Below, in pieces: positions 18,763 to 63,971 of a stretch of 64,000 nt of DNA. The DNA is taken from contig OX597838.1 in assembly GCA_951406725.2 (NCBI GenBank), positions 29,822,001 to 29,886,000 on the forward strand, read 5' to 3'. A program made the translations under genes and the position numbers. Within the stretch, counting starts at the first letter, position 1; the number at the start of each line of letters is the position of its first letter. Below the pieces are notes generated by a model. That model saw nothing but the letters and a program-made list of their open reading frames with translations, made no database searches and was not told the origin of the DNA. The DNA is from Octopus vulgaris. Lineage: Eukaryota.

Positions 18763-18802
18763 CTGATGAAGGCTGGATGGTATATCAGCCGAAACGTTGT
18801 GT
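18763..18802 (+). ncRNA. Minimal hammerhead ribozyme motif (family P3), stem I 5' strand truncated
   Basis: CTGATGA-A-GGCTG...CAGCC-GAAAC-GTT-GTGT; element tail continues after a SINE at 19316-19351. Confidence 0.6.
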
Positions 18803-18850
18803 TAGCAACAAACAAGATGAGGACAAATATCCGTCGAATGTAAATAATGT

Positions 18851-19013
18851 AGGAGTAGGAGTGGCTGTGTGGTAAGTAGCTTGCTTACGAACCACATGGT
18901 TCCAGGTTCAGTCCCACTGCGTGGCACCTTGGGCAAGTGTCTTCTACTATAGCCTCAGGCCGACTAAAGCCTTGCGAGTGGATTTGGTAGACGGAAACTG
19001 AAAGCCCGTTGTA

Positions 19014-19092
<79 letters not shown>

Positions 19093-19315
19093 GTGTGTAT
19101 ATGTTTGTGTGTCTGTGTTTGTCCCCCCAACATCGCTTGACAACCGATGCTGGTGTGTTTACGTCCCCGTAACTTAGCGCTTCGGCAAAAGAGACCGATA
19201 GAATAAGTACTAGGCTTACAAAGAATAAGTCCTGGGGTCGATTTGCTCGACTAAAGGCGGTGCTCCAGCATGGCCGCAGTCAAATGACTGAAACAAATAA
19301 AAGAGTAAAAGAGTA
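18851..19315 (+). mobile_element. Full-length CORE-type SINE
   Basis: Same family; short TSD TAATGTA. Confidence 0.9.
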
Positions 19316-19574
19316 ATGTACATAATTCCTCATCTCTTAAATATAGAACTGTATAATCTATTTACACTTTAAATTTCATTTTAGCAAACAAAAGATAAAA
19401 TTTGAACTTTATTTTAGTAAACAAAGATAAACACAAGATATTAAAATCATTTTTCATAAAGTCGTTCATTTTTTAGTCCATTCAGCTGGTGACTAGCTTG
19501 ATATTGGTGTTTCTGACACAAGATATCCTAATCAGTTTTAATGAACTCATTAGTCTGATAGTTCCTCTGCTCTT

Positions 19575-19987
19575 TCTCTTTACTCTTTTACTTGTTTCAG
19601 TCATTTGACTGCGGCCATGCTGGAGCACCGCCTTTAGTCGAGCAAATCGAACCCGGGACTTATTCTTTGTAAGCCCAGTACTTATTCTATCGGTCTCTTT
19701 TGCCGAACCGCAAAGTGACGGGGACATAAACACACCAGCATCGGTTGTCAAGCAATGTTGTGGGGGGGGGGGCAACACAGACACACAAACACATACGCAC
19801 ACACATACATATATATATACATATATACGACGGGCTTCTTTCAGTTTCCGTCTACCAAATCCACTCACAAGGCTTTGGTCGGCCCGAGGCTATAGAAGAA
19901 GACACTTGCCCAAGGTGTCATGCAGTGGGACTGAACCCAGAACCATGTGGTTGGTAAGCAAGCTACTTACCACACAGCCACTCCTGC
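19575..19987 (-). mobile_element. CORE-type SINE inside the hAT ORF
   Basis: Reverse complement of the 13190 family. Confidence 0.9.
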
Positions 19988-22106
19988 AGTTGACATCTAA
20001 TTTATTTCTTTTTCTACTTAGAATATCTACAACAGATGAAAATGCAGATTCCACCATCCATGTGGTAGGGAAAGAAATGTTGCTTGCTTTCTACATGTCG
20101 AAAAATATTTGGGTGTGATTCCTTAATCGACATGTAGGCAAAGACACCTTCTTTGTCAATTCTTCTTCTCGGTTTCATATTCTCTTTCAAATCCAACAAC
20201 ATTTCAGCCAACTCAAAATTTTCATCTCCTGGCTCATAATTTTCTAGGTCTACAAACCATAGTGGATAATCCATCTTTAATAAATCATTGTATCTTCTTT
20301 CAAAGTCTACATGAAGACCTTCAAGATGGGCAATGCATTCTGATGCAGGAACAGAGATGTTAAAATTTTGAAATGATGCCAATTTTTTTTTCCAAACTGT
20401 TTTTTACCAAAATTTTAATTTCCCCATATACCCTTTTATCTTCTGAGAACAGCTCTAGGTTAAGCAGATTCACTGTTTTAAAAATATCACTCAAGTAGAA
20501 TATTTTTGATTTAAACTCAGAAAATCTTTCCAAAATTTTCTTAGCTGTTTCAGTTTGCTTCTTGGAATTGTAATGAGTCAGCTGATTCTTGAACATGATT
20601 AATGGTTCCCACCAATTCACTAGTCTTTCAAGGCTCAGACCTTTTGACAACCATCTTATTTCTGTGTGAAGCAATAGGGTTTTAAAATCTTCATCTTCAC
20701 AGAATTGCATTAAAAAATCTACTATTCTCTGAGTTTGATTTGACAAAGTTTATTACATGTATGGCAGTGTTGAGTGCTTCTTCCACTTGTCCTCCAATAT
20801 TCTTAGTAACCAAATGCCGTCTGTGGATAATGCAATCATCATCATCATTTAATGTCCGTCTTCCATGCTAGCACAGGTTGGACGGTTTGACCGGGGTCTG
20901 GGAAGCCAGGAGGCTGCACCAGGCTCCAGTCTGATCTGGCAGTGTTGTTTCTACAGCTGGATGCCCTTCCTAACGCCAACCACTCCATGAGCGTAGTGGG
21001 TGATTTTTACGTGCCACCGGCACAGGTGCCAGAGAAGGCTGGCAAACGGCCGTTTATAAAAAATGTGAGGAGCAACTGATTTCATTCTAGAAACAAAACC
21101 TTTCACTTTTCCAGTCTTGGCTGCAGTTCCATCTGATGCAATGTTGATCAAATTAGTCAATGGAATATTTTTATCTTTAAAATACTGCATTACTTCATTG
21201 AATATATCTTCTCCATTAGTAGTTTCAGACAAACTTTTAATGAATCACATTTCTTCCCTTATATCATCTTCATGGATGAATCTGACACAGACCAGAAGGA
21301 TAGCTTGGTTGTGAATTGTGCTATCATCAACCTGGATAGAAAAATGTCTTTTGAAGAATTTCCACAATCTTCTCCTCAACAATATTAGACATTCCATCCT
21401 ATCTTCTTGTAATTGTGTTATTTGAAAGTGGAATTGTACTCAGAGTAGATGCAGCATCTTTTCCCAGAACATCATTTGCACAAGCTATCATAGCAGGCTC
21501 GACAAGTTTCTCACCTTAAATCTGAGGTGCTGCAACCTTGGCAATAATTTCAGAGACCAAATAACTTGGTTTGAGTGTCTTTGCTTTTTCAGTATTCCTC
21601 TTCTTTACAAAGTCGGGTAGTTTGATTGGCTGTAATTTCTTTTTATTCTCAAAATATTCCCTACCTTTACCAACAGATGATGGGTGCCTTAATTTCTGGT
21701 GCTGTTCCAGCTTAACTTTCTTCATGGAATGATTTGTCGTGATGGCATCACATTCAAGACACATAGGTTTTGAGTCTACAGATACAAAACCAAACATGAT
21801 AAAATCTTCTTTGTAGTTCTTCAGTTTTGCCTTTTGTAGCAGTTGGTTCAGACATTATTACAACTGATCTTAAAAAAAATAAAAATAATAAATACTTTAT
21901 TTCTATAGATCAAAAATATCAAATTTATTATGAAACTGTTGTGATTGTAAAATTTTAATTTATGTAATTCTTGATTGTAATATATTATTGATTATATAAT
22001 ATACATTATTGATTCTTATGGAATAATTATAGAATTTTGTTTTCTTATTATTGTGTCTTCTTATAAATCATTATTAACTAACAATGTCTTTATTATTGAT
22101 CAGTAT

Positions 22107-22321
22107 TACTCTTTTACTTGTTTCAGTCATTTGACTGCGGCCATGCTGGAGCACCGCCTTTAGTCGAGCAAATCAACCCCGGGACTTATTCTTTGTAAGC
22201 CCAGTACTTATTCTATCGGTCTCTTTTGCTGAACCGCTAAATTACGGGGACGTAAACACACCAGCATCGGTTGTCAAGCAATGCTAGAGGGACAAACACA
22301 GACACACAAACATATATATAC

Positions 22322-22380
<59 letters not shown>

Positions 22381-22547: not shown

Positions 22548-25054
22548 TTGTATAAATCTGAAAGGGTTTACATTTTTTTTATGGCTACAAATTCTCTGGG
22601 GACCACCGGTGGGCCCTAGGGACCACGTTGGGAATCACTGAGTTACATCAATCCCAGTGCTCAACTGGTACTCTCTTTACTCTTTTACTTGTTTCAGTCA
22701 TTTGACTACAGCCATGCTGGAGCACCACCTTTAGTCAAGCAAATCGACCCCAGGACTTATTCTTTGTAAGCCTAGTACTTAGTCTCTTTTGCTGAACCAC
22801 TAAGTTACAGGGATGTAAACACACCAGCATCAGTTGTCAAACGATGTTGGGGTACAAACACAGACACACAAACATACATACATACATATCATCATCATCA
22901 TCATTTAACGTCCGCTTTCCATGCTAGCATGGGTTGGATGGTTTGACCGGGGTCTGGGAAGCCAGGAGGTTGCACCAGGCCCAGTCTGATCTGGCAGTGT
23001 TTCTACAGCTGGATGCCCTTCCTAACGCCAACCACTCCATGAGAGTAGTGGGTGCTTTTTACATGCCACCAGCACAGGTGCCAGGTGAGGCTGGCAACAG
23101 CCACGATCGGCTGGTGCTTTTTACATGCCACCAGCACAGAGGCCAGTCGGGGCAGAGCTGGTAACGGCCACGTTCAGATAGTTCTTTTACGTGCCACCAG
23201 TACTGGTATCACAACTACAATTTCCATTGATTTTTTAGCGATTTATACATTTATATATAAAGTTAATCCAAACAAGAAAGCACAAAAAACACAACAACGC
23301 GAGGATGTGGAACTAATATAGTATTATTAGCTCTTCGTCAGAAACATAGGAGAAGGAAAGATCCAGAGAAGGGAAGACAGAGGAAAAAAAATCGCCTACG
23401 GTACACACGAGGTCACATGTATAAATCGCTCAATGGGCTTCTTTCAGTTTCCGTCTACCAAATCCACTCACAAGGCTTTGGTCAGCCTGAGGCTATAGTA
23501 GAAGACACTTGCCCAAGGTACCACACAGTGGCACTGAACCCCGAACCATGTGGTTGCTAAGCAAGCTACTTACCACACAGCCACTCCTACTTATTTTGTT
23601 GATTCCGAAAGGTTGAATGGCAATGTCGATCTTGGCGACATTTGAGCTCAGAACGTAAAATCGGAAGAAATGCCGCTAAGCATTTTGTCCGGCAACGCTT
23701 CTGCCAACTTGCTGCCTTCATCCTACACATTATTGATGTCTGTTGATTGTCAATTATTAAGGAATGTCTATTCTTTACTTTCACTTTCACCAATTTCTTT
23801 CAATTTGTTGTTTGTCATTATATGTACATAAAACGAAAGAACACCTTCTTCTGTCGTTTCTTCCAGTTTTCTCGGTTTTTCTTTTCGTTTGAACCTTGGT
23901 TTCTTTTTTTTTCATTTTTTTTTTCCGCATCCTAAAATATATTTTACGCGATGCTCTGCCGAGTTTTATCGCAACGATATTGATTTTTTTCCTCTAAAAC
24001 ATAAGATCAATTATTGAACGAGATTATATAACGACAAGTATTTCGCAGGTACTAAATATCAACAATCACAGGTGAATTTGTGTTACGAAGTTTTCTTCCC
24101 AACCACACAGTTCCGGGTTCAGTCCCACTGCGTAGCCCCTCGGACAAGTGTCTTCTGCTTTAACCTAGAGCCGACCAAAGCCTTGTGAGTGGATTTGATG
24201 GACGGAAACTGAAAGAAGACCATTGTATATATAAATTAATAAATATATATGTGTGTGTGTCTGTAATTGTCCCCCCACAACCAGTGTTGGTGTGTTTACG
24301 TCACCGTAACTTAGCACTTCAAGAAAAGAGACCTATAGAAGAAGTACCAGATTTAAAAATAAATAGGTACCTAGGTCGCTTCGTTCGGCTAAAATTCCTC
24401 AAGGCGGTGCCTCAGCATGGCCGTATTCTAATGGTTGAAACGAATAAAAGATAAAGGTAAGAAAAAAATGGAACTGAAAAAAAAATTATAATCACAAGAC
24501 AAACTTTTAATAAAAGGACTGAAATATTTTTTTTGTTTTATTTAAGACACTGAATAAAACGTAAATTGTTTGTCACATATAAAAGTCATGACATAAACTC
24601 ATTAATTCACCCGCTAATTAGTATTAGCAGCTAATAATATACGGGTTGCGGCAGAAAAAGATCTTTCAGATTCTCATTCTTGATAAATGTTTTAAGGGAA
24701 AACAAATTATATATATATCACAGAAACGCATTTTCATCTATTAAAAATAAAATGGTAAACCATTAGCAACAAGAGAACGACATTATTACCTGCCTAACAC
24801 CTCTAATGTCAAAGCAATCGTCGTGCAAAATATGGGAGGTCTTTCTGCCTCGCTCCGTATTTGTTTTATTCGTGTAGCCATGATTTTGAATGTGAGTTTT
24901 TGGGGCACACACATACAATGTCATTATTGTATAAATTACGCACGAAAGTCTTAATTTGTTAGTTAATGAGCGACTTTGTTTAATTAACATAGCAACTATT
25001 TTTTTGTTTGTTTTTAATTAAATGTGTCATTTTGTTTGTTTGTTTGAAGTTATG

Positions 25055-25521: not shown

Positions 25522-25552
<31 letters not shown>

Positions 25553-27587: not shown

Positions 27588-27589
<2 letters not shown>

Positions 27590-27865
27590 TATCCGCAGTG
27601 TACAATATCATATATCGATCATGGCTGATCTTACCCATCGGTTTGCCGCTAGGGGTACAACGGAATGTTAGGTAACAATCCAAGTATATGACCCCCACGT
27701 TCATCAGAGGTAGCACTGACCACATTTCATTCTATGTCGGCTACCTCTGATGAGCGTAAGGTTATATAATCGGATTGTTACTTAACATTCTGTTGTACCC
27801 CTTGCGCGAAACCGATTCGTAAGGTCAGTTGTGATGGATACATAATACTATACACTTCGGATAAT
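27588..27865. repeat. ~280-bp imperfect palindrome (arms 27588-27714 and 27740-27865) containing hammerhead motifs on both strands
   Basis: Arms pair over ~125 bp at roughly 80% by hand alignment. Confidence 0.9.
27740..27829 (+). ncRNA. Type I hammerhead ribozyme, canonical core
   Basis: Stem I ACCT(27743-46)/AGGT(27822-25); CTGATGA 27747-53; stem II GCGTAAGG/CCTTGCGC; GAAA 27808-11; short stem III AC/GT; GTA triplet with predicted cut after 27821. Confidence 0.75.
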
Positions 27866-28099
27866 AAATACCCACTCTATTGACAGATATAAAAGTGCAT
27901 CTTTTTCCTGACTTATGGACTTTTAAACGACTTATGTATATCATCATCATCATCATCATCGTTTAACGTCTGTTTTCCATGCTAGCATGGGTTGGACGGG
28001 TTTTGACTGAGGGCTGGCAACCAGATGGCTGCACTAGGCTCCAGTCTTGATCTGGCAGAGTTTCTACAGCTGGATGCCCTTCCTAACGCCAACCACTCT

Positions 28100-28171: not shown

Positions 28172-28174
<3 letters not shown>

Positions 28175-28366
28175 GTTAATCCAAACAAGAAAACACAAAA
28201 AAACACAACAACGCGAGGACGTGGAACAAATATAGTATTATTGGACGCTCAGGAAAGAAGGAGGTTTTAACGGTTCGAGCGGAGCTCTTCGTCGGAAACA
28301 TAGGAGAAGGAAAGATCCAGAGAAGGGAAGACAGAGGGAAAAAATCGCCAACGGTACACACGCGGT
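28172..28366 (-). mobile_element. Penelope-type short repeat (family P1) with degenerate minimal HHR
   Basis: Reverse complement of 52229-52431; core reads CCGACGA...GAAC; abuts (TA)n. Deleted copy at 23255-23418. Confidence 0.65.
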
Positions 28367-28373
28367 CTCGATT

Positions 28374-29729
28374 TGTAGAACGACCGTATGAAAGGAGATG
28401 GTGACGAATGAATGTCTCCTTTTAAACACCGCATGGTCGCCTTACAATATGAGCCGAAATATATACGTGCCAAAAAGAATAAGGAAGGAGACGACACAAC
28501 CGATATGCTTAAGAGAAAGGTTTATTCAGTGTGTTGACATGTGGGTAGCAGAGTGTCTGTGTGCTTGTGTGCGTTATATGTACACACATAATAAAGAACA
28601 ATAAGAAGACAATAGACAGACCGTCATTCATACAATAATGTGTATGTACAACAACGGTGTATGCGTGTGAGATGTGGAGGCGCAATGGCCCAGTGGTTAG
28701 GGCAGCGGACTCGCGGTCATAGGATCGCGGTTTCGATTCCCAGACCGGGCGTTGTGAGTGTTTATTGAGCGAAAACACCTAAAAGCTCAACGAGGCTCCG
28801 ACAGGGGATGGTGGTGATCCCTGCTGTACTCTTTCACCACAACTTTCTCTCACTCTTACTTCCTTTTTCTGTTGTACCTGTATTTCAAAGGGCCAGCCTT
28901 GTCACTCTCTGTGTCACGCTGAATATCCCCGAGAACTACGTTAAGGGTACACGTGTCTGTGGAGTGCTCAGCTACTTACACGTTAATTTCACGAGCAGGC
29001 TGTTCCGTTGATTCGGATCAACCGGAACCCTCGTCGTCGTAACCGACGGAGTGCTTCCAATGCGTGTGAGATAAAATACAGAGCATAGAAATGAGTCTCT
29101 CGTGACGCTAGAAGTAGAACACACAAGATGTGGATAAATACTAGTTCGTAGTAAGAAACGCAATTGTAATGGTTCTGTAACAATGAGGTTGAGGCAAAAG
29201 TGGAGAGCCGGTTACTACGCATGTAGAGGTTGTGGCTACTATCCTGTGTCGGGTTACTTGGTACAGAAAGATCTCGCAGGTAGACTTGGCTGTTAACCTT
29301 GGTGAGTATTCACAAATAGCGTGAAGTTAAACCTATGCGAATTGCATGAAGGCGACGGCGGAGAAAGGTCCTGAAATGCTGCTGGTGGTGTTGGTGTCGC
29401 GGTCGCTGGAACTGGCTGAGTCGCTGGAACTGGCTGAGTCGCTGGAACATGGCTGAGTCGCTCTGTGGTCAGAGGTTAGTCCTAAGAAGGACTAGAACCA
29501 AAGACAAGTAATAGTTTGTTGTGATTAGCTTTTAAAGAGTTTAATGGGCTCCAGAAGAGAACCTAGAAGACTGTGTCACGGGACCTTATCAGAAGGTTGT
29601 GATTGGCTGGATTACACATTGGCGCGAAATAAAGCAAGAGTTGAAACTGCACCAAAACCAACCAATCAGAGCAGCGGACACAAGTGGGCCTAAGCAGCCG
29701 AAGGCCGGCTGTTATACGCCACGTCCGCA
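28374..29729 (-). mobile_element. Unclassified LTR-like interspersed element
   Basis: Non-coding and CpG-rich relative to flanks; minus-strand AATAAA (~28520); CCAAT boxes; internal 18-bp tandem repeat at 29402-29462. No clear TG...CA/TSD pair. Confidence 0.35.
28674..29059 (+). mobile_element. Young full-length tRNA-derived SINE with 13-bp TSD
   Basis: TSD ATGCGTGTGAGAT at 28661-28673 and 29060-29072; near-identical copy at 53337-53700. Confidence 0.9.
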
Positions 29730-30439: not shown

Positions 30440-30995
30440 AGGCTGTGTGGTAAGAAGTTTATTTCCCCACCGCATGGTTCCGGGTTCAATCCCACTGCGT
30501 GGCACCTTGGGCAAATGTCTTCTATTATAGCCTCAGGTTGACCAAAGGCTTGCGCAAGGATTTGGTAGACGGAAACTTAATGGCAGACCTTTGTACTGCA
30601 ATGCCAGGCCAACACGTGGCAAAGGCGGAGCAAGCCCCTAACTCTTCGCCTCGTTCTAAAAATCAATCTAACATAGATGATCCCTTAATAGGGACCGTAT
30701 CAGATATTAAGCTGATAAGAACAAATACTACACTTTGATCTTAGCCAGAAGTCCGAAAAAAAGTATGTATGCATGTGCGTGTGTGTGTGTGTGTTTGCCC
30801 CTCCTCCACCGACCACTTGACAGCCGGTGTTAGTTTGCTTACATCCCCGTAACTTAGCGGCTCTGCAAAAAAGAGACCGATAGAATATGTAACAGGTTTT
30901 TAAAAATATTGGGGTCAATTCATTCGACTAAACCCCTTCAAGTTGGTGCCCCAGCATGGCCGCAGTCCAGTGACTGAAAGCAGTGAAAGATAAAA
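30440..30995 (+). mobile_element. CORE-type SINE interrupted by a U2 copy
   Basis: Head and core up to GGAAACT (~30577); tail resumes at ~30767. Confidence 0.8.
30581..30766 (-). pseudogene. U2: U2 snRNA pseudogene (near full length)
   Basis: Minus strand CTTCTGGCTAAGATCAAAGTGTAGTATTTGTTCTTATCAGCTTAATATCTGATACG...GATTTTTAG (Sm-like)...GGGCTTGCTCC...CCTGGCATTGCAGTAC matches U2; degenerate 5' end; no snRNA gene context. Confidence 0.9.
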
Positions 30996-31295: not shown

Positions 31296-32260
31296 GGCGA
31301 GCTGGCAGAACCGTTAGCACGCCGGGCGAAATGCGAAGCCGTATTTCGTCTGCCGTTACGTTCTGAGTTCAAATTCCGCCGAGGTCGACTTTGCCTTTCA
31401 TCCTTTCTGGGTCGATAAATTAAGTATCAGTTACGCAGTGGGGTCGATGTAATCGACTTAATCCATTTGTCTGTCCTTGTTTGTCCCCTCTGTGTTTAGC
31501 CCCTTGTGGGTAGTAAAGAAATAGGTATCTCGCCCATCGCTACGTTCTGAGTTCAAATTCCGCCGAGGTCGTCTTTGCCTTTCATCCTTTCGGGGTCGAT
31601 AAATTAAGTACCAGTTACGCACTGGGGTCGATGTAATCGACTTAATCCGTTTGTCTGTCCTTGTTTGTCCTCTCTGTGTTTAGCCCCTTGTGGGTAGTAA
31701 AGAAATAGGTATTTCGTCTGCCGCTACGTTCTGAGTTCAAATTCCGCCGAGGTCGACTTTGCTTTTCATCCTTTCGGGGTCGATAAATTAAGTACCAGTT
31801 ACACAGTGGGGTCGATGTAATCGACTTAATCCGTTTTGTCAGTCCTTGTTTGTCCCCTCTGTGTTTAGCCCCTTGTGGGTAGTAAAGAAATAGGTATCTC
31901 GCCCATCGCTACGTTCTGAGTTCAAATTTCCGCCGAGGTCGACTTTACCTTTCATCCTTTCGGGGTCGATAAACTAAGTACCAGTTACGTAGTGGGGTCG
32001 ATGTAATCGACTTAATCCGTTTGTCTGTCCTTGTTTGTCCCCTCTGTGTTTAGCCCCTTGTGGGTAGTAAAGAAATAGGTATCTCGCCCATCGCTACGTT
32101 CTGAGTTCAATTTCCGCCGAGGTCGACTTTGCCTTTCATCCTTTCGGAGTCGATAAATTAAGTACCAGTTACGCAGTGGGGTCGATGTAATCGACTTAAT
32201 CCGTTTGTCTGTCCTTGTTTGTCCCCTCTGTGTTTAGCCCTTGTGGGTAGCAAAGAAATA
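31296..32260 (+). repeat. Head-to-tail array of five ~184-bp Meta-like SINE units, inserted in a minus-strand CORE SINE (31025-32365)
   Basis: Unit junctions AAAGAAATA|GGTAT at 31524, 31708, 31893 and 32078; only the first unit has the 5' head. Confidence 0.9.
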
Positions 32261-32559
32261 GCTATTGCAGAAGACACTTGTCGAAAGCGTCACGCAGTGG
32301 GGGTAAAACCCAGAATCACGCGGTTGCGAAGCAAGTTACTTTACCACACAGCCACGCCTGCGCCTAAATTAATAAAAATTAAGCTAGGTTTTCATTTTAT
32401 TTATAATTTTTAATAAAAAGGTGTTAATTACGTAATTATAGTTTTGCAACTTTCAGAATTATTCTGCTGCTAAGATTTTGTGGTAAAAGTACTTGAAAAC
32501 TGTTATCTAATATTTTCCTGTTTTCAAGTGGGATGTTAATTCCAGCTATTAAACGCCGC

Positions 32560-41730: not shown

Positions 41731-41890
41731 CCATATTTTAACGTGTATAAGGAACCCTTTTTTGTTGAAAATTAGGTTAAAAAAAATATGGGTGTTTCTT
41801 ACACATGGATATTATACTCCCTTACAAAATCTTTTTTCCAAATTTTCAGCCCCCAAAATTAGAGGGTTCCTTATACACGTTAAAATGCAG
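41731..41890. mobile_element. pogo/Tigger-like MITE inside an old Meta-like SINE
   Basis: TA TSD; TIR ATTTTAACGTGTATAAGGAACCC / GGGTTCCTTATACACGTTAAAAT. Confidence 0.75.
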
Positions 41891-43396: not shown

Positions 43397-43577
43397 GATC
43401 GTTAGCCACTACAAACATTTTTTTTTCTCTCCTTGTTTTTTTCTGTGTCCCTTTCTGTAGAAGAGCGTAGGCTCGAAACGTAAAAGACTTTTTCTATTCC
43501 TGAGCGTTATACTAATACATCTGTTTGTTTTGTACACCACCTGTCTTCGTCTTTTGTTTTTTTCGTAAACTCTCCCT
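43397..43577 (+). mobile_element. Penelope-type short repeat (family P2) with variant minimal HHR at 43451-43486
   Basis: CTTT-CTGTAGA-A-GAGC-gtag-GCTC-GAAAC-GTA-AAAG; embedded in (TA)n; second copy at 60102-60288. Confidence 0.65.
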
Positions 43578-43835
43578 ATATATATATATATATATTTGAT
43601 TTTTTTTGATTTTGATTTTTCCAGTTTCAGCTAATGAGCTGTGGCCATGCTGGGGCACCGCCATTTATATATATATATATATATATATTAAGAACATTCT
43701 GGATTTTGTTCTAAGATTAAGTTTCATTGATTAGTTTATATTGGAGATAATCATATAGATTGGTTATAGATTTTTGTTTCATCTCTCTCTCTGCATGTAT
43801 ATATATGTATGTATGTATATATATTTCTTTGATAT

Positions 43836-43948
43836 AATGAACTGAAATGGCTTTACTGATAATTTTTCCACTTTAATAATTAGATAAACTTATAAACATC
43901 TCATTATTAAAGTGGGAAAAATGATCAGAAAAGCCATTTCTATTCATT
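43836..43948. repeat. Short inverted repeat / hairpin (MITE-like)
   Basis: GAAATGGCTTTACTGATAATTTTTCCACTTTAATAAT pairs with ATTATTAAAGTGGGAAAAATGATCAGAAAAGCCATTTC. Confidence 0.7.
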
Positions 43949-44417
43949 TGTTCAAATATATATAGTACCGTACCAAGGACTTCCTGTTTCTTACTCTACT
44001 ATATATATATGTGTGTGTATATGCCTAGTTACCTATTCTACGTGTTAGTTTAAATATACAGGCACAGGTATACAGTATTTGATTATTCTTTGTTTCTGTG
44101 AGCGTTTGTGTATATATTTGTATATATATATATATTTAGCATTTCTTTCATTGAACTGTGGCCATGCTGGGGCACAGCCGTAAAACAATTTAGTCGAACA
44201 AATCGTCCCTAGTACTTATCTTTTAAAAATTCCTTTTAAAAGCATCTACGTGCATACATATGTATGTGTATTTATGTTGATATATATATATATATATACA
44301 CACTGTACAATGGAGGTGTGAACAGGCAAGCAACAGGTATCTGTTTAGATCCTGGCATTTATCTATAATTGCTGAGTTGTTACAATTGGGTAGATCATAA
44401 TAAAAAGGTTGTGTATG

Positions 44418-44785: not shown

Positions 44786-45902
44786 AAGACTTGGATGAAA
44801 GCATCAAATATATATGAAAACAAGGGTGGACAAACAAGATGTTACACAAATATAAATACAAAATACAATAAAAATAATAATAATAATAATAATAACAACA
44901 GGCGTCTTTCGACTTGGGACGAATTGAATTCAGCTGGCGTGTGTGGAAATGAAGCTCTATGGCTTACAATGATGTAGGAGAGCATATAAACTCCAACAAA
45001 AGAGAACAGGATAGATTCATGATCAAAATTATCCGTTTGGTGCTTAGAGAAGTGGAAAGAGTCAATGATGGTGCTTTGGACATTGTCTGTCTTTGGAGTG
45101 AAAAAGTGGATGGTAAACCACCCGAAATTGGAAGAAAAATATCCAATGGAGAATTGCCAACATGTGTTGCTTGTCTGCACGGTTGACATGTTAATTAGAC
45201 GAGTTTTACAAAGTTAAATGAACTGGAATTAACTGTGTAAAACAAACATAACACACAACAAATGGCTGGTTAGATCAATATCTGGCAGTAAAATGAAGTT
45301 TTGGATGCTGTCTGTAATGCTGCAGTGTGTCTGTGGCCAAGAGAGCTTAATTCCCTACGGCTGAGTCTACCCAGCTGTAAATAGGTAATACATTGTGTGT
45401 AGTTTATTACTGTAAGCTGCACTGATTGCACTGAAATTGTTTCACTGGCTTTCTCTGCTGAGTTCAGTTCCTCTGGTGAGCATCAGTTTATGAAAGACTA
45501 GCTTCCTATCCTGGTTGAGATTTATTTCTCTTTCACTTAACATTGTTGAAAACCAGTTAGTTACTACTCTTTGGATGCAGGTTGTTTGGAAATGTCGTGT
45601 AAATGTGAAAATAAATATCTTTGTGATGAGAATAGCTTGAAATATCATCTTAAGTCCTTTTAGATAGTTAAACATAAAAAAAAAAAAAAAAAATTAGCTA
45701 ATTCTTTCGATACCAGCCTGTGTAAAATTATCCTTCTTCTTTAATACATAGTTCCATTCTAAAGTGTTGTATTTACATTAAAGCCATTTCTGTAATTTTT
45801 ATTCCAATGGTATTTGGAACAAAGCTTGAGAAAAGAGAAATGAATATTGGTATATTAAACTGGTGTTTGGAACCCGAAAGAACACTTGTATATTAAGATG
45901 GT

Positions 45903-46017
45903 TATTTACATCTTGTTTGTTGTTTACACAACATTTCGGTTGATATACCCTCCAGCCTTCATCAGGTGTCTTGGGGAAATTTCGAACCTGGGTTCTCATT
46001 CCTAAGGTATTTTTCGA

Positions 46018-46052
<35 letters not shown>

Positions 46053-46298
46053 TCACTGCCTGGAATCGAACTTGGAATCTTGGGGTTTAGTAGCCTGTGC
46101 TCTTAACCACAATGCCATATGCCTGTGGGCAATTATGGAGTGAATTTTAGGGCTTATAAATCTAATATTTTCATATCTTGAATGCTGGAAGATATATCAG
46201 CCGAAATTTTGTGTTAACAACAAACAAGATGAAGACAAATATCTGTCTAATGTAAATAATGTATATAATTCCTCATCTTTCAAAATATAGAACTGTAT
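45903..46298 (-). mobile_element. tRNA-headed, hammerhead-containing retroelement (family P3) with 14-bp TSD
   Basis: TSD TATATTAAGATGGT at 45889-45902 and 46299-46312. Minus-strand A box TGGCATTGTGG (46107-46117), B box GTTCGATTCC (46062-46071), (AAT)n and HHR (45926-45969); inverted partial copy of the HHR tail at 46183-46295. Confidence 0.75.
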
Positions 46299-47552
46299 TA
46301 TATTAAGATGGTGTTTGGAACAGTTTCTTAGGATATACATATATGTATATATATATATATAAAGTATGAGTGTGCCTTTTATATCACTGTATAAGTCTTG
46401 TATCATAAAAATCATCTTAATATACCAAAATATATTTGTTTTTTTGTTATATTTCGGAATGGTCATTTTATCAGTTTAGCCAATAAATGGCAAAATGACC
46501 ATTCCGAAATATAACAATATCTGTTTCAACACAAGACTTCACTTAAAAAATCTTGCACAACAAATATATTTGTTTTTTGTTACATTCGAATCACCTTCTT
46601 AATAATGAACAAATTAATTTTATTAAATTCCTACAAATTCTTGATAATTTTTGAAGACCTGATTGAAACGATGTAGAAGGTTGTAACAAGTCAGAAAATA
46701 TCCTCAACAAAGGGTTTAGCAGACAAACGTCCAGGTGTCTGCATTCAAGGATTTGTAACAGAGGACATAGTTTTATCTAAATAGAGAACTGGTGTTGTCA
46801 AAGGCATTGGACAAAGGGTGTTGTGGCATATTTTTCCCAGTGTTTTGCAGTCTGAGTTCAATTCCCGCTGAGATCAACTTTACCTTTTATTCTCCTTGTT
46901 TGTGGCAGGAGGGATGGGGGAGAGGGAGGGTGTTTCTAAAGTGCACCAGCCGAGGATGGTGGACTTGCGGAACCATTGACCCATTGGATTTCATGGTATA
47001 TATTTCACCACTTTGCATGCCGAGTTCAAATCCCATCATAACCAACTTTGCTTGTATTCCAAGATCAACTTTGCCTTTCTTTCTCCTCATTGTTGGGGTG
47101 GAGGTCGATAAAGTACACCAGCCCAGGATGGTGGTCTTGTGGAAACATTAAGCCATCGGACTAAATGTTTTACGATATTACTTTCAGCTTTTTGTGTTCA
47201 GAGTTCAAATCCAATGTGTCTGATAGACAACCTGCTGCCTGGTTTAACACCCCCACCTGCTATCTTTGGGTACCTTTAGTAGAGTCCATTTATTTTATTT
47301 CTTTATTTTTCTTTTTTTTTTTTTTTTGGTGCAGCCATCTGGTTCGCCAGCCCTCAGTCAAAATCGTCCAACCCATGCTAGCATGGAAAGCGGACGTTGG
47401 ATGACATTGATGATGATGATATAAGTGTTTAAGTTGAGCTTCCAATTCAAAGATACCTCCTTCCTTTCCTCCCTCCCTCCCTCCCATGTTCCTTCTAGAT
47501 TTGGAGGTTCCGGAAAGGGTCAGGAGTTCTGCCCCTCCTTCCTGACTAAAGC

Positions 47553-52187: not shown

Positions 52188-52225
<38 letters not shown>

Positions 52226-52228
52226 AAA

Positions 52229-52431
52229 ATGTGACCGCATGTGTACCGTTGGCGATGTTTTTCCCTCTGTCTTCCCTTCTCTGGATCTTTCCTATGTTTC
52301 TGATGAAGAGCTCCGCTCGAAACGTTAAACCCTCCTTCTTTCCTTCTTTCCTGAGCGTCCAATAATACTATATTTGTTCCACGTCCTCGCGTTGTTGTGT
52401 TTTTTTTGTGCTTTCTTGTTTGGATTAACTA
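52229..52431 (+). mobile_element. Penelope-type short repeat (family P1) with intact minimal HHR at 52296-52330
   Basis: GTTT-CTGATGA-A-GAGC-tcc-GCTC-GAAAC-GTT-AAAC; flanked by (TA)n. Confidence 0.7.
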
Positions 52432-52802: not shown

Positions 52803-52987
52803 TAGTTAATCCAAACAAGAAAACACAAAAAAAAACAACAACGCGAGGACGTGGAACAAATATAGTATTATTGGACGCTAAGGAAAGAAGGAGGGTTTAA
52901 CGTTTAGAGCGGAGCTCTTCGTCGGAAACGTAGTAGAAGGGAAGACAGAGGAAAAAAAAAATCGCCAACGGTACACACGAGGTCACA
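52803..52987 (-). mobile_element. Family P1 copy, inverted relative to 52229
   Basis: Reverse-complement match; core CCGACGA...TAAAC. Confidence 0.7.
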
Positions 52988-53336: not shown

Positions 53337-53700
53337 GGAGGCGCAATGGCCCAGTGGTTAGGGCAGCAGACTCGCGGTTTCGATTCCCAGACCGGGCGTT
53401 GCGAGTGTTTATTGAGCGAAAACACCTAAAAGCTCCACGAGGCTCCAGCAGGGGATGGTGGTGATCCCTGCTGTACTCTTTCTCCACAACTTTCTCTCAC
53501 TCTTACTTCCTGTTTCTGTTGTACCTGTATTTCAAAGGGCCAGCCTTGTCACTCTCTGTGTCACGCTGAATATCCCCGAGAACTACGTTAAGAGTACACG
53601 TGTCTGTGGAGTGCTCAGCCACTTACACGTTAATTTCACGAGCAGGCTGTTCCGTTGATCGGATCAACCGGAACCCTCGTCGTCGTAATCGACGGAGTGT
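53337..53700 (+). mobile_element. tRNA-derived SINE (28674 family)
   Basis: Near-identical to 28674-29059 with a short deletion in the head. Confidence 0.9.
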
Positions 53701-53844
53701 TTCCCCCGTCCCCCACAGCTCACCCTTCTCACAGTTTATTATTTAAGATTATGTCGATTCTTCTGTGATGTTTTGCATTTATAATAAAATAAATATATAC
53801 AGATTATAAAAAAATTTGTAATACAGTAGGAGTGTATTTGTAAT

Positions 53845-54329
53845 AGGTGCAGGAGTGGCTGTGTGGTAAGTAACTTGTTTACCAACCACATGGTTCTGGG
53901 TTCAGTCCCACTAGGAGTGGCTGTGTGGTTGGTAGCTTGTTTACCAACCACATGGTTCCGGGTTCAGTCCCACTAGGAGTGGCTGTGTGGTTGGTAGCTT
54001 GTTTACCAACCACATGGTTCCGGGTTCAGTCCCACTGCGTGGCACCTTGGGCAAGTGTCTTCTACTATAGCCTCGGGCCGACCAAAGCCTTGTGAGTGGA
54101 TTTGGTAGATGGAAACTGAAAGAAGCCCCATTGTATATATGTATATATATATATGCGTGTGTGTGTTTGTGTATCTGTCCTCGTTACTTAGCGGTTCGGC
54201 AAAAGAGACCGATAGATTAAGTACTAGGCTTACAAAGAATAAGTCCCGGGGTCGATTTGCTCGACTAAAGGCGGTGCTCCAGCATGGCCGCAGTCAAATG
54301 ACTGAAACCAGTAAAAGAGAGTAAAGAGT
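53845..54329 (+). mobile_element. CORE-type SINE with triplicated 62-bp head
   Basis: AGGAGTGGCTGTGTGG units start at 53851, 53913 and 53975. Confidence 0.9.
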
Positions 54330-58551: not shown

Positions 58552-58582
<31 letters not shown>

Positions 58583-58583
<1 letters not shown>

Positions 58584-58807
58584 GACCGCGTGTGTACTGT
58601 TGGCGATTTTTTTTTTTTTTTTTTTTTTTTTTTTCCCTCTGTCTTCCCTTCTCTGGATCTTTCCTTTTCCTATGTTTCTGACAAAGAGCTCCGCTTGAAA
58701 CGTAAATCCCTCCTTCTTCCCTTCCTTCCTGAGTGTCCAATAATACTATATTTGTTCCACGTCCTCGTGTTGTTGTGTTTTCTCTTTGTGTTCTCATGTT
58801 TCGATTA

Positions 58808-58811
<4 letters not shown>
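58583..58811 (+). mobile_element. Family P1 copy with degenerate HHR core
   Basis: CTGACAAAGAGCTCCGCTTGAAACGTA; flanked by (TA)n. Confidence 0.7.
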
Positions 58812-58862
<51 letters not shown>

Positions 58863-59195: not shown

Positions 59196-60101
59196 CAGCA
59201 TGGCTAGAGCGGTCCTGACTAAAATCAGTAAAAGCAAAAATATTGATGTGTGACAGTTGTCAGGAAACCTGATGCTTTGTTCCCATAATTAGTCACAGCT
59301 CGTTATAGGACAAGTTGTGACAATCACCTGACACCTGTTGGAGTCATTGAGGTTAGGTTCAACTGTCTGGGGCAATTTCAATGAGGATACAATGGTTGTA
59401 TTTACCTGTCTACAATTTCAATGTGGTACATTGATTGGGTCGACCTACCTGAGACGGTTTCAGTAGGGTACACTGGTTATAGAGTTTTGGTGAGTGATGA
59501 CTCCTTGGGAACCTTAGAGTTTTTATAACAATATGATGGTGACGATGTTGCTGATGCTGTTGATGCCATCCCATATCCACTCTGATTAAGTTGATCTCTA
59601 ATCAAAGATAATCCAGTTCTGATAATCAAGTAAATTTCTTTGTAGTTGATGTCAGTACAACTGTGAACTGGAAGCAACGTGAAATAAAGTATCTTGCTCA
59701 AGAACACAACACACAGCCCAGTCTGAGAATCAAACTCACAACCTCATGATCATGAGCCTGAGACTTTAACTACCTTCACACATGCACAAATGGGAGTTTA
59801 AAATTGTGAATTTAAACCCCATTTGTGTTCTTTTTTTTGTATGTATGCCTCACCTAGAACTAGCCCTACTCTTTAAATTGGTACTCCCGTATTTACAGTG
59901 TCTTACCAACACCTGATACCTTCATAGTTGTTTTATCCTCACTGTGAACTCTGTTATTGTACCTAGCCATTTCTGGCATCCTACCTGTTGAAGTGCCTAG
60001 ATTCTATTGAACCCTGTAACTAATCTCTTTCTCTCTGATATATATCATCATCATCATCATCATCATCATTTAACGTTCACTTTCCATGCTAGCATGATAT
60101 A

Positions 60102-60288
60102 TCGATATCCACTACACACATTTTTTTCTCTCCTTGTTTCTCACCTTGTTTTTTCTGTGTCCCTTTCTGTAGAAGAGCGTAGGCTCGAAACGTAAAAGAC
60201 TTCTTCTATTCCTGAGCATTATACTAATACATCTGTTTGTTTTGTACACCACCTGTCTTCGTCTTTTGTTTTTTTCCTAAACTCTCCC
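60102..60288 (+). mobile_element. Family P2 copy with variant minimal HHR at 60163-60198
   Basis: Core identical to 43451-43486. Confidence 0.65.
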
Positions 60289-60296
60289 TATATATA

Positions 60297-60332
<36 letters not shown>

Positions 60333-61547
60333 GTTTATAGATTCTATTGGATTTTGGTTATCTTTTTATTCCATATTTTCCCTTTTCAAGGGAATTCCTC
60401 TGAGATTGCTAATAAAAAAAAAAATTAAAACATTCAAACTATTTTCAATTCCACCCTTTTTGCTCAGATACTTTCTGTGTGTATGTGTTCCCATATTTTA
60501 GGAACCCCTTTCTCATGCATAAATTTACTTCCTGGTAAACATTCCTTCAAGTAATTAAGTGAAACTGAGGCTAATAGATTGATTGTTAGATATAAATTCT
60601 AATGTTCTGGTTTCGTATTGAAAAGCTTACATTTTTATTGCCAGAGGGAGTAAGGGATAATAGAGACAACAGCCAGGGTAAATGGTTGGCTGGTTGGTTG
60701 GTCGGTAGGTGAGCAGTGTGTTCCTTTAAAAGCCACTGTCATGGTTATTTTATATCATTGTTAATATTTGATATTTCTGAGGTCTTGATGTGTTGCTTTA
60801 CATCTTGAAAATTGATACCCTCCCTGATGTGGAATGCCTTTGGTATTTTTGAGATAAGAAACAATGGGAGTTAGTGTGGCTGTGTGGTTAGGGAGCTTGC
60901 TTACCAACTATAGTGGTTACAAAGTGGGAATTTGGGGGTCTTCTATTATAGCACTACTACGTTAAGTGAGTGGCTTTGGTAGACTGAAACTCAAACAAGT
61001 TTGTCTTTATATATATATACATACATATATATATAAAGGTGCAGGAGTGGCTTTGTGGTAAGAAGCTTGCTTCCCAACTATATGGTACCGGGTTCAGTTC
61101 CACTGTGTGGAACCTTGGGCAGTATTGGTTCAGAATAGCATTCTGTGAATCTTACTTAATGTGGATACACTAAAGCCAGAAAACTGCAGTGTGTGTGTGT
61201 GTGTGTGTGGGGGGGATATCCTTTGATAGTTGCAGTCAAGTGGCAGTGATCATTTCCAATTTTCTGTGAAAATATATCTAACCATGGGGAAAATAATATC
61301 TTGCTTGGAAACGGGTGGCAGCAGAAAAGGTATGTTCCTGAATGAATTCTATCTAACCTGTCATCATCATCATTTTAATGTCCACTTCCATGCTCTTGTA
61401 AGTCAGATGGAATTTGTTGAGACAGAAACAGCATGGCTGGATGCACTTCCTATGACCAAACTGCCTGTTTCCAAGTGAATATTTCCCACTGGCCAATCAC
61501 TTTTTTCTAACATGCTAACAGTTTTGCCAGTAATAATAATAATAATA

Positions 61548-62155
61548 ATTCTTTTATTGGCCACAAGGGCTTACATAAAAACATGAAATGACGTAACGGA
61601 ATGACATATGGGTTTTAAAACGTGTAAACAAAAATACCAATAAAAATTAAACAAATGTAACTCCCAGTAGGGGGAGGCTCTTTAAAGCCATGATTGCCTG
61701 ACCAACAGGGTAAGAGTCCTTTTATTTTTACAGGTGCATGCTCAAAATGGCCCCTTTCACACTGACCATTTTCCCAACAAATTTGCTAGAAGGTAGTACT
61801 TCCCTCTCCATCTTCGCTTTCCTTTTCAAGTGAAACTTAGAAAAGTTTACGAGGGCTTGGCCAAAGAGGAAAGTGTCTGTCTTTAGCCCTTTCAAATGTG
61901 TCCACCACACAACCTCTTTTGCTATTACTACCAGACATATAAAAATTGCCTGTCCCTTCCAGCCAAAGGAGGGCAGCAAGGCAATCTTCACTATGGATTC
62001 AGCTCATAGCTGGATCCATCCTACAATTGACAGCATGTGTCCAACATAAACCCACAGGTCAGTAATGCTCGGGCACTGGACGAGGGTGTGCAGAATGGTC
62101 TTGTCGCTCTGAGTGCACCTTAGGCAGGCTTGGCTAACAGCACTTCTGTGCCTGG
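61548..62155 (-). mobile_element. 5'-truncated Tx1/L1-clade LINE 3' end
   Basis: Minus translation ACLRCTQSDKTILHTLVQCP (C-terminal zinc-binding motif)...AKEVVWW...; AATAAA and (ATT)n tail near 61530-61558. Confidence 0.75.
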
Positions 62156-62289
62156 GAAGAAGTTATTTTGTTGTTTAAACCCAGGAGACTACCGGATGAT
62201 CAAACAACATTCCATCCCTGACCACCTTCCCCTAATATTCAATTTATCTATAACCGACTTTATCTACTTTAGACTTTCATTTTCTTTTT

Positions 62290-62600
62290 CTTCTCATGGT
62301 TGTGAGTGATTCATAGATTTCACCATTAATTCTTGGAGGTCTGGTGATTGTGTAGAGACAGTGACTGACAGAAGAATGGAAGATGTTTGCAATGGGGCAG
62401 TGGGTGGGGTGGTATTTGGTAAGGGGGGCGGGGAAGACGTTTTTATTGTCTGTCGGCAAGTTCAGAAAGAACAAACTACTTTTAATAGGAAAGTGGTAGA
62501 CTGGAGGAAACTAGAGGCTGTTCTGCATTGTCGACCAAAAGTAATAGAAATGGTAAATTCAATGGTGTGGGGAAGAATTCTGAGAAGTGGCAAGGGTGGA
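62290..62600 (-). pseudogene. Possible Penelope-like reverse transcriptase relic
   Basis: Minus fragments LLRILPHTIEFTIS (cf. LNSLHP.I.FT.E), FLNL (cf. FLDI) and YHPTHCPIANIFHS (cf. S.HP.H...I..S). Confidence 0.4.
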
Positions 62601-63653
62601 GAGGGAAAGGGAGGGGACAGTTTTTATGGTGGAATATTGGTTGTAGAGAGTTGAGGAATGAAAACTTGTTTACAAGTGTTATTCCTTTGTTGTTTTTGTT
62701 TCTTTATTTGTATGTACATGATGGTGATTCTGTAGCCAGATGGTAGTTTATAGTATTAATGTGGTTTGTGTAATGCTGAACAAAAGAGAAAAGAAAATCA
62801 AAATATGTTAGACAATGTAGTCATAGATATTACAAAAAAAAAACAAAAAATGTTATGATGGTCATGGCTGGACTACTTTCGATTATAGATTTGCTAAAAT
62901 CAAGGCTGGCTTTGAGCTATATATCAGCATAATATACCTAACTGACTATATTTTCATACTCGTCTTGGTTTGCCGTTGTTAGTGCCACTTTCAAAGGTAT
63001 ATAATTGATTTTATCAAAACTTTGACAGACGAAGAGCAAAGCTGACTGCAGTGGGATTTAAACACAATATAAATGGACATGGCTAAATACTGCCAGGTAG
63101 TTTGTCTGACAGTTTACCAATTCTGCCAGCATCTTGTAAAATAAAATATGTAAATATATTCTGATGCAGTTTGCACTGGCTTTGCAGTGCGGTTGCACCA
63201 AGTGCACAAAATACAAACTGCTTAAATAAAATGAAGAGATTAAGTGTAGACGTCACTCGACTGTTGCACTATTTTTGCATAATTTATATTTCAGCTGTGG
63301 TGCACACATTATGTCTGGCTGTGTGTGTTGGTTAATCCAATGTTAAAATATGACATTTGGAATCTACATGCTCTAGGTTCAATCCTACCTAAAGTATACA
63401 ACTCTGTCTTGACTCCCATCTTGAGAATAAAATTGAGAATATGTACAACTGTGAAGTCTGTCATGTGGTCTGTACCTGTTCTTAGGTAGATGGTTTAACC
63501 ATTTAGCATTTAAATTGACCATATCAAGCTCAAATTTCCTGGTTAATGTTCAAACAGGCCAGATCAGGCTTCTCACACCTACCCTACAATGTCATTCTAA
63601 AAATATACAATTACATCATCAAAATTTTGAAGCTATTGGATAATGTATGATTA

Positions 63654-63858
63654 CAGTAATCCCCTCATTATCAGGGGTGTTACATTCCACCCTCCACCGA
63701 AATAATTGAAATCTAAAAAAAAATACAAATACCTATGGGCTGTAGAAATCCAAGATGTACTGAGGAGTCTACGATATAAATTTACATACATTAACCAGAA
63801 AAATCTGTGATGCACTAAGTGTGCGATAGGTGAACCGCGATATGGTTAGAGATTACTG
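63654..63858. mobile_element. pogo/Tigger-like MITE
   Basis: TA-CAGTAATCCC...GAGATTACTG termini. Confidence 0.6.
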
Positions 63859-63925
63859 GAATTCAAAATGAATAAATAAGTGCCTTATTTACATTTGAAG
63901 GATATTTGTCTTCATCTTGTTTGTT

Positions 63926-63971
63926 AACACAACGTTTCGGCTGATACACCTTCCAGCCTTCATCAGGTGTC
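63926..63971 (-). ncRNA. Intact minimal hammerhead ribozyme (family P3); element runs off the window end
   Basis: Minus strand GACAC-CTGATGA-A-GGCTG-gaaggtgtat-CAGCC-GAAAC-GTT-GTGTT. Confidence 0.7.

What the first reader, a model, noticed from the sequence alone, without database searches (positions are those of the whole stretch)
18763..63971. Overall: at least four unrelated hammerhead-bearing repeat families in 64 kb
Seen: about a dozen intact or decayed HHR-like cores. P1, P2 and P3 have different stem sequences (GTTT/AAAC, CTTT/AAAG, ACAC/GTGT; GAGC/GCTC, GGCTG/CAGCC) around the same CTG..GA-A...GAAACGT(T/A) scaffold, which amounts to between-family covariation. Inference: the genome may hold a very large population of ribozyme-bearing non-autonomous retroelements, an overlooked RNA-processing layer in a lineage known for RNA editing.
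Basis: partly seen in the sequence, partly recalled or inferred. Interest (0 to 1): 0.75.

Follow-up and report, generated by a model that had tools for sequence, protein, structure and literature searches.

The report
Hammerhead-tipped remnants of Penelope-like retrotransposons
The hammerhead-shaped RNA motifs are real and are the broken-off tail ends of four Penelope-like jumping-gene families, a known arrangement in animals; most copies are damaged or carry an altered catalytic core and are likely inactive, so they probably do not form a host RNA-processing layer.

Summary
Confirmed: 13 hammerhead-like copies in 18763-63971 (14 in the window), in four families, far above chance (4 vs 0.0 in shuffles; 16,176 vs 167 genome-wide). 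They are not unrelated non-autonomous elements. Each family is the 3' repeat (pLTR) of a protein-coding Penelope-like element (PLE): A Penelope/Poseidon-type, B and C sister Neptune-type (68% protein identity), D probably Hydra-type. Minimal hammerheads in animal PLEs, at thousands of copies per genome, are published (PMC4209133). About 110,000 copies are estimated here; this window is about 5.6 times denser than average. Only 2 of 14 window copies have a consensus core with intact stems. Two details go beyond the papers I could read. Young, intact B and C elements carry altered cores (U4C, A6U); only 14% of 34,180 intact-stem B/C motifs are consensus. Most A copies that reach a tRNA-like A/B-box head start there (4.6-fold step), like a SINE. 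No trace of cleavage at the cut site was found; activity is untested. The scan reported the PLE origin and the tRNA head before, on other DNA of this genome. Lunse et al. 2017 could not be read and may hold the core variants.

The parts
18763..18851 (+). Family A (Penelope/Poseidon-type) 3' end; consensus core, but cut at the core so the 5' arm of P1 is lost
45896..46172 (-). Family A copy: ORF tail, tRNA-like head, (AAT)n, hammerhead at 45965 (P2 mismatch; GAAATGT), 3' tail
46055..46123 (-). tRNA-like head of family A (A box starts 46117, B box starts 46071); preferred 5' end of A copies genome-wide; lower boundary approximate
46179..46263 (+). Family A, 5'-cut inverted partner of the 45965 copy; first half of the core missing
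63885..64000 (-). Family A copy with an intact minimal hammerhead at 63966 (P1 5 bp, P2 6 bp, ACGT P3); runs about 40 nt past the window end into (AAT)n
23261..23418 (-). Family B (Neptune-type) copy; 3' half of the hammerhead deleted
28174..28408 (-). Family B copy ending in (TA)n; core CCGACGA (U4C) and GAACCGT
52224..52430 (+). Family B copy between (TA)n tracts; consensus core CTGATGA at 52300 with intact P1 and P2, unlike most of its family
52804..52987 (-). Family B copy; U4C core and G12 lost
58583..58810 (+). Family B copy between (TA)n tracts; G8 lost, stems damaged
43398..43585 (+). Family C (Neptune-type, sister of B) copy; core CTGTAGA (A6U) at 43455, stems intact
60101..60297 (+). 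Family C copy; A6U core at 60167, stems intact
27720..27934 (+). Family D (probably Hydra-type) copy with 3' tail; consensus core at 27747, long P2 with inserted hairpin, 3-bp P3 with one mismatch in this copy
27588..27714 (-). Family D inverted partner without tail; core damaged
4546..4657 (+). Family D fragment starting at GAAAC (outside the finding's range)

Best explanation
The motifs are the hammerhead-type RNA elements in the terminal repeats (pLTRs) of four Penelope-like retrotransposon families, and the window's copies are short 5'-truncated insertions that are likely inert as ribozymes. Shown: long copies of each family run from an RT/GIY-YIG ORF or its remnant into the same motif; intact B and C elements have the motif on both sides of a roughly 1,000-residue ORF; copies hold the whole motif and end 45-110 nt beyond its cut site. 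Inferred: the element's protein nicks AT-rich DNA, mostly (TA)n for B, C and D, and starts reverse transcription at a fixed site downstream of the uncut hammerhead, as shown in vitro for anole Poseidon (PMC11167929). It usually stops early, so every insertion deposits one hammerhead. The ribozyme likely acts only in the element's own RNA, as a pair or with the element's protein, slowly and without being needed for insertion. That would let the young B and C lineages thrive with U4C and A6U cores. In family A a tRNA-like A/B-box head likely starts a separate, SINE-like RNA of about 300 nt that the same protein copies.
For: ORF linkage. A: (RVT_1 E=2.7e-6). B. C: (RVT_1 E=5.7e-8; GIY-YIG E=0.0004-0.008, both below Pfam's cut-off); homologues carry RVT_1, many also GIY-YIG. 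D: one decayed copy with a Hydra-like endonuclease end (L081). All 14 window copies map to the 3' ends of these elements. Direct-repeat layout: the motif lies 4.5 kb apart in L300, L302-L304 and 6.1-6.2 kb apart in L292, L293, L297, L298; elements are mostly 95-99% identical; 122 of 150 scored C protein matches share one score. Inverted pairs and two 3' ends (A +58/+80, D +46/about +108) match the PLE 'tail' (PMC8557442, PMC11167929, passages). Cores: 4,868 consensus, 9,287 U4C, 20,025 other (mostly A6U) of 34,180; 0 of 16 ORF-linked C loci have A6. Single changes in CUGA gave low activity (PMC9901934, passage). Hammerhead mutants did not affect insertion, cleavage needed the protein, and no RNA ends were seen at the cut site in anole (PMC11167929, passage). 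No pile-up at the cut site: 4 of 43 junctions vs 8 and 11 at two other TA-like spots (hand count). Head step in A: 3,743 vs 816 and 812 exact words; 22 of 32 held copies start within 13 nt of the A box.
Against: Inertness is inferred; no cleavage was measured. Master lineages vary only where a hammerhead allows it: N7 takes all four bases, position 17 is A, C or U with G in 473 vs 34,180, and P1 keeps a G-C/C-G swap. This points to continued selection on a cleavage-type fold even with U4C or A6U. About 16,000 consensus-core motifs exist, and the D family pattern has a 3-bp P3 that might fold as a monomer. Clade names rest on motif definitions from PMC8557442, not on alignment to named reference elements; Neptune and Nematis share the linker; D rests on one decayed copy. 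The cut-site test covered one C subfamily and (TA)n junctions only.
Confidence: 0.82

Rival explanations
1. Variant-core but working ribozymes: U4C and A6U are tuned, slow or protein-switched hammerheads that the young Neptune elements need, for example to free or circularise their RNA.
For: Constraint at N7, H17 and P1 across B and C subfamilies; both pLTRs of intact elements keep the motif; a natural U4C viroid variant keeps enough activity in vivo and a natural A6C variant cleaves slowly (PMC3088659, section 8 and passage); the anole PLE hammerhead is protein-assisted (PMC11167929).
Against: No cut-site signature; the double-hammerhead fold lies 6.5-24 kcal/mol above the homodimer minimum, worst for the youngest B form, which also has a U-U mismatch in P1; hammerhead mutants still insert in vitro (PMC11167929). 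This rival concerns the masters and can coexist with inert dispersed copies.
Confidence: 0.35
2. One reading: a large set of active, non-autonomous ribozyme retroelements that cut host transcripts and form an RNA-processing layer.
For: About 110,000 copies; 16,176 consensus-core motifs; the SINE-like unit of A has a consensus core; the palindromic P3 could in principle pair with another copy.
Against: B, C and D copies are truncations of coding elements; 1 of 31 random copies and 2 of 14 window copies have a consensus core with intact stems; single minimal motifs were inactive (PMC4209133); no host-gene link was found or could be tested.
Confidence: 0.08
3. The tRNA-like head of A is only the start of the pLTR, or a stop or switch point for reverse transcription (a small hairpin precedes it), not the start of an independently transcribed SINE.
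Against: A and B boxes are conserved, starts peak 6-7 nt before the A box (tRNA position +1), counts are flat over the next 116 nt upstream (816 vs 812), and there is no T4 run in the window copy or in 2 of 3 other copies checked.
Confidence: 0.35
4. Chance matches or an assembly artefact.
For: The core words are short.
Against: 0.0 in shuffles and 167 vs 16,176 for the reversed pattern; independent flanks at many loci; DNA words held by 20 public runs.
Confidence: 0.01

Closest known systems
Minimal type I hammerheads of metazoan PLEs (Cervera and de la Pena 2014, PMC4209133; read: parts 1-2 of 4, passages of supplement 2; supplement 1 not searchable)
   Same: CUGANGA plus an unpaired base, G10.1-C11.1, GAAA, palindromic helix III without loop, 4-5 bp helix I with a U-rich 5' side; several families per genome; mostly single truncated copies, some inverted pairs; thousands per genome (about 4,000 coelacanth, 9,000 Xenopus); Lottia and Crassostrea examples.
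   Different: No cephalopod in the text or supplement searched; higher total copy number here; most B/C copies carry U4C or A6U, whereas the paper's core variant is U3-A8.
Poseidon_Ac of the green anole (Frangieh et al. 2024, PMC11167929; abstract and passages)
   Same: Hammerhead in the pLTR, insertion from uncut RNA, two RT start sites giving the tail, AT-rich targets, no RNA ends at the cut site.
   Different: Consensus core there; no tRNA-like head in the passages seen; activity measured there, not here.
Neptune, Penelope/Poseidon and Hydra clades of PLEs (Craig et al. 2021, PMC8557442; passages, section 11, supplement searched)
   Same: C-terminal GIY-YIG; CX2-5CxxC linker and (TA)n targets in B and C; no linker in A; CX5C, CxH and (TA)n in D; tandem or inverted layout with tail.
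   Different: These octopus-type families were not found in the supplement search, which lists octopus only for Naiads in the rows seen (2 of 4).
Schistosoma Sm-alpha / Sj-alpha hammerhead SINEs (as reviewed in PMC6765202, passages)
   Same: Pol III-type promoter followed by a hammerhead in a short repeat.
   Different: The A unit is the 3' UTR of its own coding PLE, has a minimal hammerhead, and is dispersed or inverted rather than in tandem arrays.
Animal non-LTR retrozymes (PMC7229834, passages; bioRxiv 10.64898/2026.07.22.740005, part 1 of 5)
   Same: Type I hammerheads, PLE connection, up to 120,000 copies (axolotl), 16 families in one coral.
   Different: Retrozymes are tandem, non-coding, with canonical hammerheads and circular RNAs; the window copies are single or inverted ends of coding elements.
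Small stem-III variants associated with PLEs (Lunse, Weinberg and Breaker 2017; not held; seen only as cited in PMC6765202, content otherwise recalled)
   Same: Diminished stem III, dimer cleavage, PLE association.
   Different: Unknown; it may already list U4C or A6U cores and octopus sequences.

Membership tests
Minimal type I hammerhead of animal PLEs | Consensus core CUGANGA and GAAA...UH: families A and D | tested here: met
   A: 2,570 exact matches of a strict pattern, nearly all CTGA in the 100 listed; D family pattern CTGATGA...GAAA...GTA
Minimal type I hammerhead of animal PLEs | Consensus core CUGANGA: families B and C | tested here: not met
   4,868 of 34,180 consensus; young intact elements carry CCGACGA (B; one 5' copy CTGACGA) or CTGTTGA (C). 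Filed as core-variant hammerhead-like motifs.
Minimal type I hammerhead of animal PLEs | Unpaired base after A9 and G10.1-C11.1 closing helix II | tested here: met
   A, B, C; D has G10.1-C11.1 without the extra base
Minimal type I hammerhead of animal PLEs | Palindromic, loopless helix III and short helix I | tested here: met
   ACGT in A, B, C; P1 4-5 bp. D instead has a 3-bp P3 with a 4-nt loop.
Minimal type I hammerhead of animal PLEs | Sits in repeats flanking an RT-GIY-YIG ORF | tested here: met
   both sides in L292, L293, L297, L298 (B) and L300, L302-L304 (C); 3' side shown for A and D
Minimal type I hammerhead of animal PLEs | Self-cleavage as a dimer or with protein | not testable with these tools
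   only folding energies and indirect junction counts
PLE, Neptune (or Nematis) clade: B, C | Telomerase-like RT with DKG motif, CX2-5CxxC linker, C-terminal GIY-YIG, (TA)n targets | tested here: met
   CSRSRCNTC and CSRPRCRTC linkers, YVGQT and YIGQT; (TA)n flanks
PLE, Neptune (or Nematis) clade: B, C | Placement among named Neptune references | not tested
   no named reference proteins on hand; the tree holds only unnamed relatives
PLE, Penelope/Poseidon clade: A | RT with DKG and C-terminal GIY-YIG, no Zn-finger linker | tested here: met
   L306 ORF: DKG, no linker, 27% identity to C; no intact full-length copy among those fetched
PLE, Hydra clade: D | CxCX5C linker, CxxC and CxH around the conserved E and N, (TA)n targets | tested here: inconclusive
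   one decayed copy (L081) shows CX5C and CxH; CxC and CxxC are interrupted; its RT part is absent
Non-LTR retrozyme | Tandem non-coding monomers, each with a hammerhead | tested here: not met
   window copies are single or inverted; no hammerhead-bearing tandem array; families are ORF-linked
tRNA-derived SINE (unit of A) | A and B boxes at a defined 5' end | tested here: met
tRNA-derived SINE (unit of A) | Recognisable tRNA origin | tested here: inconclusive
   no ARAGORN or Rfam tRNA hit; the likeness is to A/B-box consensus as recalled
tRNA-derived SINE (unit of A) | Transcription by Pol III | not testable with these tools
   only contigs of runs not on record as RNA were offered

The most novel reading that the evidence does not exclude
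The two youngest, still-spreading Neptune families of this genome run on non-consensus hammerheads (U4C, and an A6U core for which I found no natural report) that stay under selection as slow, protein-switched ribozymes; and a Poseidon-type element carries in its own tail a Pol III promoter that spawns a hammerhead-bearing SINE copied by a Penelope-like enzyme.
Probability: 0.3. Interest if true: 0.55.

Novelty: new member of a known kind. Interest (0 to 1): 0.3.

Why it matters
As a class this is known. It matters in two narrower ways. First, young intact elements with matched consensus, U4C and A6U cores and their own proteins give a ready test of the open question of what the PLE hammerhead is for. 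Second, standard CUGANGA searches miss about 86% of the intact-stem B/C motifs here, so published counts for animals may be low. The tRNA-headed unit of A would be a clear case of a SINE arising inside a PLE. There is no support for a cephalopod-specific host RNA-processing layer.

Tried and rejected
Rfam gave no hammerhead hit in the parts shown: its models do not fit these forms. Pfam on short ORF fragments was mostly blank; longer ORFs worked. tblastn of four PLE proteins against the window found nothing. Cut-site signature: not found. In one search, starts at 0 or +1 were 3 of 80 (A), 2 of 104 (B, one deletion seen twice), 0 of 92, 0 of 74 and 0 of 72, but these sets were picked for intact motifs and hold duplicates. 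Expression: no RNA holder listed; contigs of four guessed-RNA runs cover the C pLTR and 5' UTR but cannot show ends or circles; host transcripts over the window were not examined. One search used a structure shifted by one column; one search is the correct one. An A6U pattern in viral contigs gave 49 stretches that I did not analyse. A downstream CUGA as a replacement core strand was considered and dropped, because the word varies as YGAGCG and fits pairing with the 3' arm of P2 better. CpG decay as the source of all consensus B cores was dropped: CTGACGA far outnumbers CCGATGA in the 100 listed. Intronic strand bias could not be tested (no annotation). Literature blanks: 'hammerhead + A6U + catalytic core' 0 papers; 'SINE + Penelope-like + tRNA-derived + hammerhead + mobilized' 0; one search gave 13 papers, none on this by title or abstract; 'hammerhead ribozyme + Penelope-like + octopus' gave only PMC8557442. 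PMC13282606 has no mention of ribozyme or hammerhead.
Full report
Setting. The window is G000:C25:29822001-29886000 in a 2.8-Gb genome. Its repeats look like those of an octopus; this rests on recall and on earlier scan notes, and I did not identify the assembly. The window is mostly repeats; tblastn with four PLE proteins finds no coding remnant in it.

Observation. A, B and C have the minimal type I layout: short P1, core, one unpaired A, P2, GAAA and the palindrome ACGT in place of helix III. D has a long P2 with an inserted hairpin and a 3-bp P3. A strict descriptor gives 4 hits in the window and none in 60 shuffles; genome-wide, the consensus words give 16,176 matches against 167 for the reversed pattern. 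Between-family covariation is real for P1 and P2 but comes from three lineages. Only 52300 and 63966 combine a consensus core with intact stems; 43455 and 60167 have intact stems with U at position 6; 27747 has a consensus core with a mismatch in P3; the other nine are cut or mutated.

What the families are. Longer copies lead upstream into PLE proteins. A: RT thumb and GIY-YIG without a zinc linker, Penelope/Poseidon-type. B and C: RT, CxxxxCxxC linker and GIY-YIG, Neptune-type; their proteins are 68% identical over 731 residues and are sisters in a quick tree (SH-aLRT 99, 24 rows, careful search unfinished); A is 27% identical to C. D: one decayed copy has a Hydra-like endonuclease end, and three other loci share parts of its upstream sequence (PMC8557442 section 11). 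All window copies map to the 3' ends of these elements. B and C are young: 122 of 150 scored protein matches for C share one score, and fetched elements are mostly 95-99% identical, with the motif on both sides of an ORF of about 1,000 residues. For A no intact copy was among the five fetched.

Numbers. Exact patterns: B 11,695, C 16,332, A 2,570, D 17, with 1,604 first-look candidates. In 80 random 10-kb stretches there were 31 copies after removing 3 B/C cross-matches, about 108,500 per genome (74,000-154,000). The window holds 219 per Mb against 39. Of the 31, four pass the strict descriptor and one has a consensus core. Published counts are 4,000-9,000 minimal motifs in coelacanth and Xenopus (PMC4209133), and over 6,000 in 16 families in a coral and 120,000 retrozymes in axolotl (PMC7229834). 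The abundance is high but of a known order.

Mechanism. Copies contain the whole motif and end at fixed points downstream of the cut site: about +100 for B (20 of 20 loci), +58 or +80 for A, +46 or about +108 for D. The template was therefore uncut or religated. This fits anole Poseidon, where reverse transcription starts at two internal sites, hammerhead mutants insert normally, cleavage needs the protein, and no RNA ends map to the cut site (PMC11167929, passages). Here, too, 5' junctions of one C subfamily do not pile up at the cut site: 4 of 43 distinct loci, against 8 and 11 at two other TA-like spots (hand count of the first 100 of 657 rows). Single minimal motifs were inactive in vitro (PMC4209133), and the double-hammerhead fold is 6.5-24 kcal/mol above the dimer minimum for five copies tested. 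I infer that dispersed copies are by-products and mostly inert.

Core variants. Among 34,180 B/C-type motifs with intact P2 and A, C or U at position 17, 4,868 are consensus, 9,287 are U4C and 20,025 are other, mostly A6U (the last by subtraction). The intact young elements carry the variants: CCGACGA in both repeats of L292, L293, L297 and L298 (L295 has CTGACGA in its 5' repeat), CTGTTGA in both repeats of L300 and L302-L304, and U6 in 16 of 16 ORF-linked C loci whose motif lay within the locus, of 20 fetched. Against plain decay: position 7 takes all four bases in C subfamilies, position 17 is G in only 473, and P1 keeps a G-C/C-G swap in 37 and 37 of 88 held copies. In 80 related PLE loci from metagenomes, 22 motifs were found in 20 loci and none in the reversed control: 19 with U4 and A6, 2 with U4C, 1 likely chance, 0 with A6U. 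A6U thus looks derived in the C lineage, on a small sample. U4C and A6C are known natural, weaker variants (PMC3088659); single changes in CUGA gave low activity in a type III hammerhead (PMC9901934). I found no report of natural A6U, but could not read Lunse et al. 2017.

The tRNA-like head of A. Between the ORF and the hammerhead, A carries A- and B-box motifs (window 46117 and 46071, minus strand). A 23-letter word at the head (two positions degenerate) has 3,743 matches; 21-letter words just upstream and 116 nt further up have 816 and 812. Of 32 held copies, 22 begin within 13 nt of the A box, half of them 6-7 nt before it, and 10 run into the ORF. The simplest reading is a Pol III transcript of about 300 nt copied by the A protein. 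A repeat boundary or an RT stop at a small hairpin is not excluded, and no tRNA model matches.

Verdict. The families are the ends of PLEs, a known kind; the claim of unrelated non-autonomous families forming a host RNA-processing layer is not supported. Earlier scan notes on other DNA of this genome reached the same PLE reading, a similar copy number and the tRNA head; they are AI notes, not independent support.

Noticed in passing
window 30573-30764 (-): Full-length U2 snRNA-like copy (119.7 bits) with a few 5' changes, next to SINE copies; gene or pseudogene not determined.
   Followed up: no
window 20017-21854 (-): Three open stretches that read like a decayed hAT-type transposase (the likeness is recalled, not searched).
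   Followed up: no
window 31341-32265 and 53851-54036: A 184-bp unit of a common repeat in about 5 tandem copies, and a 62-bp SINE head in 3 tandem copies.
   Followed up: no
window 831-2142: 35-bp CT-rich minisatellite, 38 copies, with a 138-bp higher order.
   Followed up: no
window 9719-9842, 41735-41886, 43820-43964, 46444-46517: Short self-complementary, MITE-like palindromes.
   Followed up: no
window 28675-29058 and 53337-53704: Two near-identical copies of about 380 bp with a tRNA-like 5' end.
   Followed up: no
families B and C, 15-30 nt past the cut site (e.g. window 52351-52358): A conserved YGAGCG word (CCTGAGCG in 54, CCCGAGCG in 8 of 88 copies) can pair with the 3' arm of P2 and G12; it may be an off-switch for the fold.
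   Followed up: partly
L291:1-1425: A further PLE ORF, distant from A, B and C, with no hammerhead seen in the 675 nt after it.
   Followed up: partly
G000 C1, e.g. 4515045 and 10992075: Other minor minimal-hammerhead families with different P2 appear in the genome list.
   Followed up: no
L412, L413, L435: Metagenome PLEs with the U3-A8 core covariation known from Schistosoma.
   Followed up: no
G000 C31: Many family A protein matches share the same open-frame length and stop, suggesting a tandem or segmental amplification on this contig.
   Followed up: no
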